A stretch of 64,000 nt of DNA from the human T2T-CHM13v2.0 reference genome, Homo sapiens: NCBI GenBank assembly GCA_009914755.4, contig CP068257.2, forward strand, positions 23,488,001-23,552,000. Direction: 5' to 3'. Shown piece by piece: positions 1,811 to 35,486 of this stretch (the stretch's first letter is position 1; the number at the start of each line of letters is the position of its first letter). The position numbers and the translations under genes were made by a program. The notes under the pieces are model-generated. The model made no database searches and was not told where the DNA came from. It worked only from the letters and a program-made list of their open reading frames with translations.

Positions 1811-2569
1811 AAAAATGCTCAACATCACTAATGATCAGGGAAATGCAAATTAAAACCACATTGCAATACCACCTCACTCATGAAGAATGGCCATAACCAA
1901 AAAATCAAAAAATAATAGATGTTGGCAGGGATGCAGTTAAAAGGGAACACTTTTACACTGCTGGTGGGAATGCAAACTGGTACAACCACTATGGAAAACA
2001 GTGTGGAGATTCTTTAAAGAACTAAAAGTAGAACTACCATTTGATCCAGCAGTCCCACTACTGTGTATCTACCCAAAGGAAAAGAAGTCATTATACAAAA
2101 AAGATACTTGCACACATATGTTTATAGCAGCACAATTTACAATTGCAAAAATATGGAACCAGCGTAAATGCCCATCAATCAGTGGGTGAATAAAGGCATT
2201 GTTTTATATATATACACCATGGAATACTATTCAGCCATTAAAAAAATGAAATAATGCATTTGTAGCAACCTGGATGGAATTGGAGACCATTATTTTAAGT
2301 GAAGTAACTCAGGAACGGAAAACCAAACATTGTATGTTCTCACTCATAAGTGGGAGCTAAGCTATGAGGATGCAAAGACGTAAGAATGATACAATGGACT
2401 TTGGGCACTTGGGGGGAAAGGGTGAGAGGGGAATGAGTGACAAAAGACTACAAATTAGGTACAGTATATACTGTTTGGGTGATGGGTGCACCACAGTCTC
2501 ACAAACCACCAGTAAAAAACTTATGTAACCAAACACCACCTGTTCCAAAAACCTATGGAAATTAAAGGA
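1811..2569 (+). mobile_element. L1 LINE 3'-end fragment (5'-truncated; ORF2 C-terminus plus 3'UTR), older primate subfamily
   Basis: Translation of 1822-2190 gives ...IREMQIKTTLQYHLTHEEWP...[58 protein letters not shown], which matches the L1 ORF2p C-terminus. It is followed by the canonical ...catggaatactattcagccattaaaaaaatgaa and ...gttctcactcataagtgggagctaa 3'UTR motifs. The 21-bp TSD aaaaattgcttgttgaatgaa sits at 1790-1810 and 2570-2589. Confidence 0.9.
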
Positions 2570-3342: not shown

Positions 3343-3939
3343 TAAACTTATATGTAACTGAACATAGTATTCAAATATTTGCCTTTTTTTCTATATAAAT
3401 GACTTATATGTTTCTGTAGGAGAAAGTGATTCTGACAAATCAGTGAAATGCATAAAGAAAGGACAAAGAGACAGGACATGTCACAAAAGATTTTTTTGCG
3501 CTACGTCACCTCTGTGGGTTTTAAGAGGTGAGTCAAAGTGCTTCAACTCTGTCCTCTACAGTAGTTGCAATGATAACTAATTCTCCCCAGGTTTGACAGC
3601 ACAAAAGCCCTCCCACAGGTACCCTGCTGTACCAATGGTGGCTTATCTCACTAGAAAGTTGCTCCTCTGTCAACATTGGGCGTCTCTGGAAGGAGAGTTG
3701 GACCACTCTTTCCTCACTTTTCTCTGTATGTCAAAACTGAACTTGATAATTTCAAAGCCCAGACTCTCCTTGCAGACCCATCCTCAACCAGGAAACTTCC
3801 AGGACTACATGTTGTCCAAGTAGTGAAAGTGCCCTATAACGGAAAAGAGCTGACAGCATATGCAAACGTGACAAAGCATAAGAGTTTTCCTGGTTAGTCA
3901 TTTGCTGGCTTTCACATGTTCATAATAAGCCTCATACCT

Positions 3940-13940: not shown

Positions 13941-15640
<1,700 letters not shown>

Positions 15641-31787: not shown

Positions 31788-33660
31788 TATAATTTTCTTG
31801 TCCCACCTTTACTCATAGCATTTGTCACATTTATAATTGTACATTCATCTGTGGTTGTGTGATTAACATCTGTCACCCCTACTAGACTCAAAATTCAGTG
31901 AATCAGAAATAGCATCTCTGAATTTGCCCATTATTGCACATGAGCTCTTAGACCATGGTTCCAGCACCCAGTAGGTACCCAGTATATACTATTGCATATC
32001 TAGTCAACCTCCCAAGCAGACTTGTGTAACTTTGGAATAAATCACAAAGTTTAGAAGACTACCAGAGACACTGCTTATTTCTGAGCCCCAGTTTGAAAAT
32101 GTTTGAAAGTTTTCTTTTGAATTCTAAGAAAAAAAAAAGCTGAAAAATGTCCATAGTAATTAAATAGGGAAATTTCTTTCCACAGTGACCTCTAAATTAA
32201 CTTCTTGTATCTTTAACCTGTTCTGTTTTTGCAATAACTTCCATACTGTCTCTGATTTTCAAAAGACCTAGAGATCATGGAGAAGACTCAGAGAAATTCC
32301 AAATGCATCTCAAAGAAAGAAAGAAAGAAAACAGAAAACCCAATAATTATAAGATTATGTTACTTTCTCATTCACACTTCATTTGCAATTCATCTTGACA
32401 CCAACTATTTAAAAAATGGGTGAGTTCATCAGTATCCAATCACAGTTCTGAGGGGGAGAACATTTGTTGATTTTTTTCTTTATTTAGTTAAAAAATAATC
32501 CATAACATAAGGTTTTGTGGTTATGTCTAAACCCAGCAGTGACTTTATCGTCTTTTTTCTTGCTTTCACTCCTTTGAGTCCTGGTTCAGTTTTGCTCCAT
32601 ATTTTCATAAGTTTCATTTCTGAGTCCCAACCTTTCTCTTTTTCTCCCCTGGGATTTCCTTATGAAAAATGTCTTCAGGCTTTTTATTTTTCTATAAGTA
32701 TTTGGAAAACATTTATTGAGGACCTACAACTTTATGTTTGGTATTTTTTATATTGATGACATTCCAAAGCTTATTGGGTTTATTCTATAATTTACTCATT
32801 TTCTTATTTCCTCTGGTATTTTCCAGTGCTACTTAAACATTTTTTAACCAATAAAGCTATTTTTTGTAATTTATAAGACAAAAGCTCAAGTAACTGAATT
32901 CACAAAAGCTATCAGAGGGTTATATTATATGCACATTAATCCTGTTTAAAATGATCAGCTTCCTTGCTATACACAAATTTCCAAATAGTGGCATCTAGGT
33001 CATCTTTGCACCTGTTCTTTCATCACAGATACACCCTCATTAAAGGGACTTCTTATTGCTTTCCTTATCACCATTTCCTGGTCATGGCCATATGTCAAAG
33101 CAAATGTTGACCTTGTTGTGTCACCAAATGAAAATTCTAGAAGTCAGGCCTTTAGATGTGAAATTTGTTAAAATCTCTCTCTTAATTTACCACTTGCTTC
33201 TTTTCCTTCATAACTTATGCTTTCTTTCTTTTATTAGAGAAGAAAGTTTTCTGACCCTGAGCATTTTTCCAGTTGTCACAAAAATGAGCCTAGCTCATAA
33301 AATTTGTCTTTTCCAAGTTCATTTTCCTTTTGAACATTTATAGCTATGATTCTCTTATTTCATCTTTTTCAAAGTCATTATAGATTATACTCTATTCATT
33401 TCATGTTTGTACTAAGTTGAATTTAATAAACCAATGTGCTAATTCCTCTTTTTCAAAATCCGAATAATGACTGTAATTTCCTTTTCAAATATTTGAAAAT
33501 GCTATTTCAGTCTTCTGTTTGTAATGCTTCCTTTTTTATTGCTTCTCTCTGGACAGTACTTTAAAATTATACTCTATAAAATAAGATATTCATAATTAAT
33601 ACTTTCCACATGCTGACATATATTTACCCCAAACTGTAATCCCAGACTTTCAAATATGAA

Positions 33661-34196
33661 TTTTTAAACTTTAATTTTAATTTCAAGTGCAGGTTTGTTA
33701 CATAGTTAAACTTGTGTTATGGGGGTTTGTTGTACAGATTATTTCATCACCCGGGTATAAAGCCTAGTACACTTTTGTTATTTTACCTGATCCTCTCCCT
33801 TCTCTCACCCTCCATTCTCCAAAAGGCCCCAGTATGTATTGTTCCCCTCTACGTGTTCATTTGTTCTCATCAGTTAGCTCCCACTTATAAGGGAGAACAC
33901 GTAGCATTTGGTTTTCAGTTCCTGTATTAGTTTGCTAAGTATAATATGGCCAAAGGAATATGAATCATTCTATTATAAAGACACATGCACAAGCATGTGT
34001 ATATTTATTGCAGCACTATTCACAATAGCAAAGACATGGAATCAACCTAAATATCTATCAATGATAGACTGGATAAAGAAAATGTACATATACACCATAG
34101 AATACTATGCAACTATAAAAAAAATATGAGATCATGTCCTTTGCAGGAACATGGTTGGAGCTGGAGGCCATTCTCCTTAGCAAATATGAATTTTTT
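33661..34196 (-). mobile_element. L1 3'-end insertion (~535 bp) with 5' inversion: direct segment 33661-33960 (antisense on +), inverted segment 33961-34196 (sense on +)
   Basis: 33661-33960 is antisense L1 3'UTR plus the ORF2 end (tttttaaactttaa...gcaggtttgttacatag...ccccagtatgtattgttcccctctacgtgttcatttgttctcatcagttagctcccacttataagggagaacacgtagcatttggttttcagttcctgtattagtttgctaagtataatatggcc). 33961-34196 is sense L1 (...tataaagacacatgcacaagcatgtgtatatttattgcagcactattcacaatagcaaagacatggaatcaacctaaatatctatcaatgatagactggataaagaaaatgtacatatacaccatagaatactatgcaactataaaaaa..gagatcatgtcctttgcaggaacatggttggagctggaggccattctccttagcaaa), matching the ORF2p tail KDTCT.MFIAALFTIAKTWNQPK...MIDWIKKMWHIYTMEYYAAIK.DE.MSF..TWM.LE.IIL. 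Flanking direct repeat caaatatgaa at 33651-33660 and 34197-34206. Confidence 0.85.
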
Positions 34197-34614
34197 ATGC
34201 CTCTCATGCTGTTATCAGGACAACTGTGGTTGGCAGACAAAATGAACACCAAGGTGTATTTATAAAACTATTATTAAACTTATATAAATAGATCTCATAA
34301 ATGACGTCCGTATCTTTCACATGAATTATACTCAACATCTAATACCTACTTGTAGAACCTGAATGACTAAAAGCAAAGCCTGTGGGGTTAGCAGATGTAG
34401 ATCTGACTCTTGAGGTATACAATTCTAAATCATATAAAGCCTTGAAATTTAATATAGAAAGAAAAACTCTCACTTGATGTCATTCATATAGATTTTTTCC
34501 TAAATTTCTTTTTAAGGCTAGATGATTTGGAATAACTGATAACTTTCCTTTGCCACATTTATTCCTACCAGATTGAGTTGAACACCTGCCTTAAGGGCTT
34601 AGCTTCCTGTTTTC

Positions 34615-35486
<872 letters not shown>

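What the first reader, a model, noticed from the sequence alone, without database searches (positions are those of the whole stretch)
33651..34206. L1 insertion with the 5' inversion signature of twin priming
The + strand reads an antisense L1 3'UTR plus ORF2 end (33661-33960, starting tttttaaactttaa... and ending ...tttgctaagtataatatggcc). The sense ORF2 tail follows immediately (33961-34196, ...tataaagacacatgcac... to ...ggaggccattctccttagcaaa). For a minus-oriented element this is a direct 3' segment joined to an inverted segment. The inverted segment comes from L1 sequence immediately upstream of the direct segment's 5' end: both pieces terminate at the same L1 position, near ...cattctcagcaaa. 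That is the topology produced by twin-primed reverse transcription. The whole structure is bracketed by caaatatgaa at 33651-33660 and 34197-34206, which is consistent with a single TPRT event.
Basis: partly seen in the sequence, partly recalled or inferred. Interest (0 to 1): 0.5.

Follow-up and report, generated by a model that had tools for sequence, protein, structure and literature searches.

The report
Ordinary twin-primed L1 insertion, 5' inverted
This is a 515-bp fragment of a primate L1 retrotransposon whose upstream half was inserted back to front, the well-known outcome of "twin priming" seen in roughly one in five L1 insertions, so it is genuine but ordinary.

Summary
Several of its coordinates are off by 9-16 bp.

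- **Flanking repeat:** a perfect 15-bp direct repeat, CAAATATGAATTTTT, sits at 33651-33665 and 34181-34195 (not 34197-34206). It brackets 515 bp made only of L1 sequence.
- **Direct segment:** 33666-33951 is L1 sense on the minus strand. It runs from the third base of ORF2 codon 1251 through the stop codon and the 3'UTR.
- **Inverted segment:** 33952-34184 is L1 sense on the plus strand and covers ORF2 codons 1181-1257.
- **L1 coordinates:** the two pieces do not end at one position. They overlap by 19 nt, which is within the reported range for 5'-inverted L1s.
- **Priming-site match:** the inverted piece meets the right repeat through a shared CAAA, as expected if the top-strand overhang primed inside the L1 RNA.
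- **Cut site:** the target reads TTTTTT/A, a canonical L1 endonuclease site.
- **Internal junction:** only 2 nt (CC) are shared.

One caveat is that the direct segment looks about twice as diverged as the inverted one (11.7% vs 5.8%, p=0.035). Part of that excess consists of variants shared with other copies of a rarer subfamily, and it is not significant for private changes (p=0.13). The empty site could not be checked. This is a textbook case of a known mechanism and of low interest.

The parts
33651..33665 (+). Left copy of the target-site duplication, CAAATATGAATTTTT. Its terminal T run (33661-33665) cannot be told apart from any remnant of the L1 poly(A) tail, read here as poly(T).
   Evidence: 15/15 identical to 34181-34195; the only exact run of 13 bp or more at spacings 480-580 in the window.
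33666..33951 (-). Non-inverted (direct) L1 segment, 286 bp, i.e. the cDNA primed from the poly(A) end. It runs from the third base of ORF2 codon 1251 to the end of the 3'UTR (consensus positions 263-553).
   Evidence: ORF2p residues 1253-1274. (alignment to the empirical primate L1 3'-end consensus). (88.6% identity by blastn).
33874..33876 (-). ORF2 stop codon (TAA) inside the direct segment. Downstream of it on the minus strand lies the L1 3'UTR.
33931..33951 (-). Copy 1 of the L1 stretch present in both segments: GGCCATATTATACTTAGCAAA. It is 21 nt long because it carries a 2-nt AT insertion and one substitution relative to the consensus.
   Evidence: Also reported as inverted repeat I5.
33950..33951 (+). 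Internal inversion junction (ATGGCC|AAAGG). The CC could belong to either segment, giving 2 nt of microhomology.
   Evidence: The consensus upstream of the inverted segment reads ...ACCCAAAGG.
33952..34184 (+). Inverted L1 segment, 233 bp, i.e. the cDNA primed internally from the top-strand overhang. It covers ORF2 codons 1181-1257 (consensus positions 53-281).
   Evidence: ORF2p 1181-1236, E=3e-20. (1239-1257). (89.8% identity).
34166..34184 (+). Copy 2 of the shared L1 stretch: GGCCATTCTCCTTAGCAAA (19 nt).
34181..34184 (+). CAAA, shared between the end of the inverted L1 segment and the start of the right TSD. This is the microhomology at the presumed internal priming site.
   Evidence: The L1 consensus reads ...TTAGCAAACTAA.
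34181..34195 (+). Right copy of the target-site duplication, CAAATATGAATTTTT.
34191..34197 (+). L1 endonuclease target motif on the nicked (+) strand: TTTTTT/A.
   Evidence: One search lists TTTT/A as the canonical cut site.

Best explanation
A single L1 retrotransposition event produced a 5'-truncated, 5'-inverted insertion by twin priming.

Inferred sequence of events:
1. L1 endonuclease nicked the + strand at TTTTTT/A.
2. The T run primed reverse transcription from the 3' end of an L1 RNA, giving the antisense segment 33666-33951.
3. The opposite strand was nicked 15 nt away.
4. Its 3' overhang (...TTTG-3') annealed to CAAA at ORF2 codons 1256-1257 of the same RNA. It primed a second cDNA that ran upstream to codon 1181, giving the sense segment 33952-34184.
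5. The first cDNA read 19 nt past the second priming site, so that stretch is present twice.
6. The two cDNA ends were joined with at most 2 nt of homology, and fill-in duplicated the 15-nt target.

The anatomy is shown. The order of events is inferred from the established model. The element is an old, dead primate L1 fragment (about 6-12% from an ad hoc consensus) with no evident function.
For: - The perfect 15-bp TSD brackets the composite and nothing else, and is unique at that spacing in 64 kb.
- Both pieces are L1 ORF2 and 3'UTR in opposite orientation.
- Their L1 coordinates adjoin with a 19-nt overlap. Overlaps occur in 42% of germline 5'-inverted L1s, with median 12 bp and quartiles 4-17 (PMC12016303).
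- The inverted piece stops at an internal L1 position with no 3' end or poly(A), directly against the TSD, sharing CAAA with it. Microhomology at the target junction is the reported pattern (PMC2837659).
- The target has the TTTT/A-type cut site. The TSD length of 15 sits at the upper quartile of the reported distribution (median 13, quartiles 10-15).
- The flanks are unique sequence, not L1.
Against: - The direct segment is about twice as diverged from the empirical consensus as the inverted one (31/264 vs 12/207, Fisher p=0.035). That ratio (2.03) lies outside the range of 19 comparator copies (0.55-1.67).
- There is essentially no poly(A) tail beyond the 5 T's that coincide with the TSD.
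- A third copy of 9 nt of the TSD (AATATGAAT) lies 5 nt inside the inverted segment, at 33957-33965.
- No empty site was seen.
Confidence: 0.9

Rival explanations
1. Two independent L1 insertions of different age that happen to lie head to head. For example, the minus-strand piece could be a simple 5'-truncated insertion flanked by the 9-bp repeat AATATGAAT (33653-33661 and 33957-33965), next to or inside a pre-existing plus-strand L1 fragment.
For: Raw divergence differs two-fold between the pieces. AATATGAAT occurs a third time, 5 nt from the junction.
Against: - The plus-strand piece has no L1 3' end and no poly(A), so it is not a TPRT insertion in its own right.
- The left flank is not L1, as it would have to be if the target had been an L1.
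- The five bases AAAGG between the junction and the 9-mer continue the L1 sequence of the plus-strand piece.
- The 15-bp perfect repeat would be left unexplained (1 occurrence in about 6.4 million comparisons).
- The 9-mer is 8/9 in the L1 consensus anyway. A match of that quality within 15 nt of the junction is expected for 6.6% of random 15-mers.
- The adjoining L1 coordinates would be a coincidence.
- The divergence excess is partly subfamily-diagnostic and is not significant for private changes (p=0.13).
Confidence: 0.03
2. A conventional 5'-truncated L1 insertion (ORF2 codon 1181 to the 3' end, minus orientation), whose 5' part was later inverted in place by a DNA rearrangement.
For: It would give opposite orientations inside one TSD.
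Against: A simple inversion neither duplicates 19 nt of L1 nor places the duplicated end in CAAA register with the TSD. No inverted repeats that could mediate such an inversion flank the 233-bp piece, other than the duplication itself.
Confidence: 0.03
3. A two-template variant: the second cDNA was primed on a different L1 RNA molecule than the first. This is a trans or 'dual priming'-like event, possibly with an RNA of another subfamily.
For: The two pieces diverge unequally from one consensus. The two copies of the 19-nt overlap differ at 2 substitutions and 1 indel. Dual priming with two mRNAs has been proposed (PMC2837659).
Against: With independent RNAs, the second priming site has no reason to fall within 19 nt of where the first cDNA ends. 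The differences between the two overlap copies are about what roughly 6-12% decay per copy predicts. Dual priming as proposed uses the poly(A) of the second RNA, which is not seen here.
Confidence: 0.04

Closest known systems
Twin-primed (5'-inverted) L1 insertions. Model of Ostertag & Kazazian 2001, cited as ref. 14 in PMC12016303 and described in PMC2837659.
   Same: [quoted passage not shown]
- The 3' fragment reaches the L1 3' end.
- The inverted fragment comes from the sequence just upstream.
- The two cDNAs overlap by a small amount.
- There is microhomology at the target/inverted-cDNA junction and little at the internal junction.
- The cut site is of the TTTT/A type.
   Different: Nothing essential differs. 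The element is short (515 bp). The overlap (19 nt) is just above the reported upper quartile (17). The poly(A) tail has shrunk into the T run of the TSD.
Twin-priming variants with a 5' poly(T) stretch, and 'dual priming' (Meyer et al. 2010, PMC2837659)
   Same: The same family of two-primer TPRT events inside one TSD.
   Different: Those loci carry an inverted poly(A), seen as poly(T), and little or no non-inverted L1. Here both cDNAs carry L1 body sequence, and the second primer sat inside ORF2 rather than on a poly(A).
Ordinary 5'-truncated L1 insertion by TPRT
   Same: TSD, endonuclease motif, 3' end of L1 present, 5' truncation.
   Different: The upstream 233 bp is in the opposite orientation, and 19 nt of L1 are duplicated.

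Membership tests
Twin-primed L1 insertion (L1 with 5' inversion) | Two fragments of L1 in opposite orientation, directly abutting. | tested here: met
   33666-33951 (minus-sense) and 33952-34184 (plus-sense).
Twin-primed L1 insertion (L1 with 5' inversion) | One target-site duplication brackets the whole composite. | tested here: met
   15/15 bp at 33651-33665 and 34181-34195. Unique in the window at that spacing.
Twin-primed L1 insertion (L1 with 5' inversion) | The non-inverted fragment includes the L1 3' end and poly(A), next to the TSD at an L1 endonuclease-type site. | tested here: met
   The 3'UTR aligns to the end of the consensus. The target is TTTTTT/A. The tail is reduced to 5 A or fewer and cannot be told apart from the TSD T run.
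Twin-primed L1 insertion (L1 with 5' inversion) | The inverted fragment derives from L1 sequence immediately upstream of the non-inverted fragment, with a small gap or overlap. | tested here: met
   Consensus positions 53-281 vs 263-553, a 19-nt overlap. ORF2p residues 1181-1257 vs 1251-end. Reported overlaps have median 12 and quartiles 4-17.
Twin-primed L1 insertion (L1 with 5' inversion) | Complementarity between the top-strand overhang and the L1 RNA at the internal priming site. | tested here: met
   CAAA at 34181-34184 is shared by the L1 consensus ...TTAGCAAACTAA and the TSD. A 4-nt match alone is only weakly significant.
Twin-primed L1 insertion (L1 with 5' inversion) | Both fragments are of the same age and from the same source RNA. 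| tested here: inconclusive
   5.8% vs 11.7% from an ad hoc consensus, p=0.035. Private changes only: 4.0% vs 7.4%, p=0.13. Two contig copies, L086 and L088 (possibly one locus sampled twice), share 9 of 31 of the direct segment's variants.
Twin-primed L1 insertion (L1 with 5' inversion) | An empty site in an outgroup shows a single-step insertion. | not testable with these tools
   An exact scan of metagenome contigs for the reconstructed empty site found nothing. No primate genome collection is available.
Primate LINE-1 (older L1PA / L1PB-like 3' end) | Homology to the ORF2p C-terminus, followed by a primate-type L1 3'UTR. | tested here: met
   PDB ORF2p matches. 88.6-89.8% identity to a consensus of 19 primate L1 copies recovered from metagenome contigs.
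Primate LINE-1 (older L1PA / L1PB-like 3' end) | Assignment to a named subfamily by diagnostic positions. | not testable with these tools
   No Dfam or Repbase library is available. The 'L1PA-old/L1PB-like' label rests on my recollection of those consensus sequences.

The most novel reading that the evidence does not exclude
The two cDNAs may have been copied from two different L1 RNAs of different subfamilies. That would make the insertion a chimera formed by trans twin priming rather than by two primers on one RNA. The two-fold difference in divergence leaves this open. A weaker alternative is that the 9-nt match to the TSD, 5 nt inside the inverted segment, reflects annealing of the second cDNA to the single-stranded target, which would have set where that cDNA ended.
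Probability: 0.04. Interest if true: 0.3.

Novelty: already known. Interest (0 to 1): 0.08.

Why it matters
It matters little beyond correct annotation. Repeat annotation would list two adjacent L1 fragments on opposite strands, and they should be counted as one insertion event. The locus is a clean teaching example: all the junction features predicted by twin priming are still readable in an old element. It adds nothing new to the mechanism, since 5' inversions occur in about 18-22% of L1 insertions (PMC12016303).

Tried and rejected
- **Empty site.** An exact 28-mer for the reconstructed pre-insertion site (ACTTTCAAATATGAATTTTTTATGCCTC) found nothing in metagenome contigs. This is uninformative, because an exact match would not survive the divergence expected in an outgroup.
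- **Paralogous copies of the flanks as a proxy for the empty site.** There were none in the window or in 121 fetched loci, so the flanks are unique sequence.
- **L1 comparators.** A 22-mer from the 3'UTR found only one contaminant contig in genome contigs (L001) and none in viral contigs. The metagenome scan supplied the copies used for the consensus.
- **Subfamily consensus.** A consensus built from copies that share the frequent variants of the direct segment did not work. Those sites behave as CpG-decay hot spots, and the 5-copy consensus was noise.
- **The original twin-priming paper.** It is not held in the library. Its content is taken from papers that cite it.
- **Rfam.** The scan of the window found nothing.
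- **Foldback or self-priming of one cDNA.** Rejected, because the two arms share only 19 nt of L1 rather than being a palindrome.

Full report
**Observation**

Reading 33300-34600 and running the repeat finder show a perfect 15-bp direct repeat, CAAATATGAATTTTT, at 33651-33665 and 34181-34195. I compared every position of the 64-kb window with the positions 480-580 bp downstream, about 6.4 million comparisons. This is the only exact run of 13 bp or more; the next longest is a single 12-mer. The repeat is therefore not chance.

**What lies between the repeats**

The 515 bp between the repeats are entirely L1.

- *Sense piece (+ strand).* From 33950 the + strand translates to PKEYESFYYKDTCT...IEYYATIK. 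This matches residues 1181-1236 of human LINE-1 ORF2p (8uw3_A numbering) at E=3e-20. After a frameshift...EIMSFAGTWLELEAILLSK matches residues 1239-1257.
- *Antisense piece (- strand).* From 33951 downwards the minus strand translates to ...IILSKLIQELKTKCYVFSLISGS*, matching residues 1253-1274 followed by the stop codon (TAA at 33874-33876). A 3'UTR follows.

To obtain DNA-level coordinates without a repeat library, I fetched primate L1 3' ends that contaminate metagenome assemblies: 121 loci from an exact 18-mer scan. I built a majority consensus from the 19 copies closest to the element.

- Plus-strand segment 33952-34184 aligns to consensus positions 53-281.
- Minus-strand segment 33666-33951 aligns to consensus positions 263-553, which is the end of the element.

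The two segments therefore adjoin in L1 coordinates and overlap by 19 nt (GGCCATTATCCTTAGCAAA, ORF2 nt 3753-3771). The overlap is present as GGCCATATTATACTTAGCAAA at 33931-33951 (minus strand) and as GGCCATTCTCCTTAGCAAA at 34166-34184.

**Junctions**

- *Right end.* The inverted segment ends ...CCTTAGCAAA and the TSD begins CAAATATG, so CAAA (34181-34184) belongs to both. The minus-strand overhang left by a second-strand nick at 33650/33651 ends ...TTTG-3'. It would pair with CAAA in the L1 RNA and prime exactly the cDNA that is seen.
- *Internal junction.* The + strand reads ATGGCC|AAAGG, and L1 upstream of the inverted segment reads ...ACCCAAAGG. At most 2 nt (CC) are shared.
- *Agreement with the literature.* This pattern, with more homology at the target junction than at the internal junction, is what is reported for twin priming (PMC2837659).
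- *Cut site.* The pre-insertion site reconstructed from the flanks is ...ACTTTCAAATATGAATTTTTT/ATGCC. That is a TTTT/A-type L1 endonuclease site on the strand that carries the antisense L1, and the second nick lies 15 nt away.
- *TSD length.* The reported median is 13 bp with quartiles 10-15 (PMC12016303).
- *Poly(A) tail.* The L1 ends ...AAAGTTTAAAAA directly against the TSD. Any poly(A) has shrunk into the T run shared with the TSD.

**Mechanism**

The anatomy fits the twin-priming variant of target-primed reverse transcription as described in PMC2837659 and PMC12016303. One cDNA is primed on the poly(A). A second is primed inside the same RNA by the top-strand overhang. [quoted passage not shown]

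The 19-nt overlap means the first cDNA was extended past the second priming site. Such overlaps are found in 42% of germline 5'-inverted L1s, with median 12 bp and quartiles 4-17. The anatomy is shown directly; the order of events is inferred from the model.

**The one discordant result**

Against the ad hoc consensus, the direct segment shows 31/264 substitutions (11.7%) and the inverted segment 12/207 (5.8%), outside the overlap (Fisher p=0.035). The ratio of 2.03 exceeds that of all 19 comparators (0.55-1.67).

I examined each mismatch.

- Several mismatches fall at sites that vary in 10-41% of copies. These are CpG-type hot spots, as one search also indicates.
- Counting only variants seen in fewer than 10% of copies gives 21/283 vs 9/226 (p=0.13).
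- Two contig copies, L086 and L088, which may be one locus sampled twice, share 9 of the 31 variants of the direct segment, against 3.5 expected. The shared variants include a run of changes in the 3'UTR.

Part of the excess therefore reflects a rarer subfamily that my mixed consensus represents poorly. I treat the divergence test as inconclusive rather than contradictory.

**Rivals**

- *Two independent insertions.* This fails for four reasons. The plus-strand piece has no 3' end or poly(A). The left flank is not L1. The 15-bp repeat would be unexplained. The adjoining L1 coordinates would be a coincidence.
- *The third AATATGAAT.* A third copy of 9 nt of the TSD at 33957-33965 could suggest a TSD around the minus-strand piece alone. 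However, the L1 consensus already reads AATATAAAT there. A match of 8/9 or better within 15 nt of that point is expected for 6.6% of random 15-mers from the window. The five bases between the junction and the 9-mer (AAAGG) also continue the L1 sequence.
- *Later in-place inversion.* This would not duplicate 19 nt.
- *A second RNA template.* This cannot be excluded, but nothing requires it.

**Context**

The window is primate DNA with 62.7% A+T. It holds about 17 Alu copies and three further L1 3'-ORF2 fragments. One of these is an older + oriented L1 3' end at 34641-35464, about 450 bp to the right, which covers the same L1 coordinates and is split by an Alu. It is a separate insertion. No Rfam family is present.

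**Novelty**

None. 5' inversions occur in 18-22% of L1 insertions, and this copy has every expected feature. Its coordinates for the junction, the end of the sense piece and the right TSD need correcting by 9, 12 and 16 bp respectively.

Noticed in passing
window 34641-35464 (+), with an Alu at about 34782-35069: An independent, older L1 3' end (about 81-83% identical to the same consensus) lies about 450 bp right of the focal element. It is split by a + oriented Alu flanked by a 16-bp TSD, ACAGTAGACT[A/G]GATAA (34766-34781 and 35070-35085), that is itself L1 sequence.
   Followed up: partly
window 33957-33965: A third copy of 9 nt of the TSD (AATATGAAT) lies 5 nt inside the inverted segment. 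It is created by a private A>G change in the L1 sequence AATATAAAT. The chance estimate is about 6.6%, so it is probably coincidence.
   Followed up: yes
window 33634-33650: The left flank reads CTGTAATCCCAGACTTT immediately before the TSD. It resembles the Alu motif CCTGTAATCCCAGCACTTTGG seen at 34806-34826, but no Alu-length homology was detected there. It is either a tiny fragment or chance.
   Followed up: no
window 2023-2368 (+) and 14289-14624 (-): Two further L1 ORF2 C-terminal fragments (74-80% identity to the consensus). Their similarity to it stops at or just past the ORF2 stop codon (consensus 339 and 346), which suggests older L1 families with a different 3'UTR.
   Followed up: no
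L001 (WYCU01000344.1, 439 bp, 'Azonexaceae bacterium s22'): A contig in a bacterial genome assembly is a primate L1 3' end (ORF2 tail, stop codon and 3'UTR) at very low coverage. This is host-DNA contamination in a species-representative genome.
   Followed up: partly
This shows how much primate repeat DNA these collections contain.
   Followed up: no
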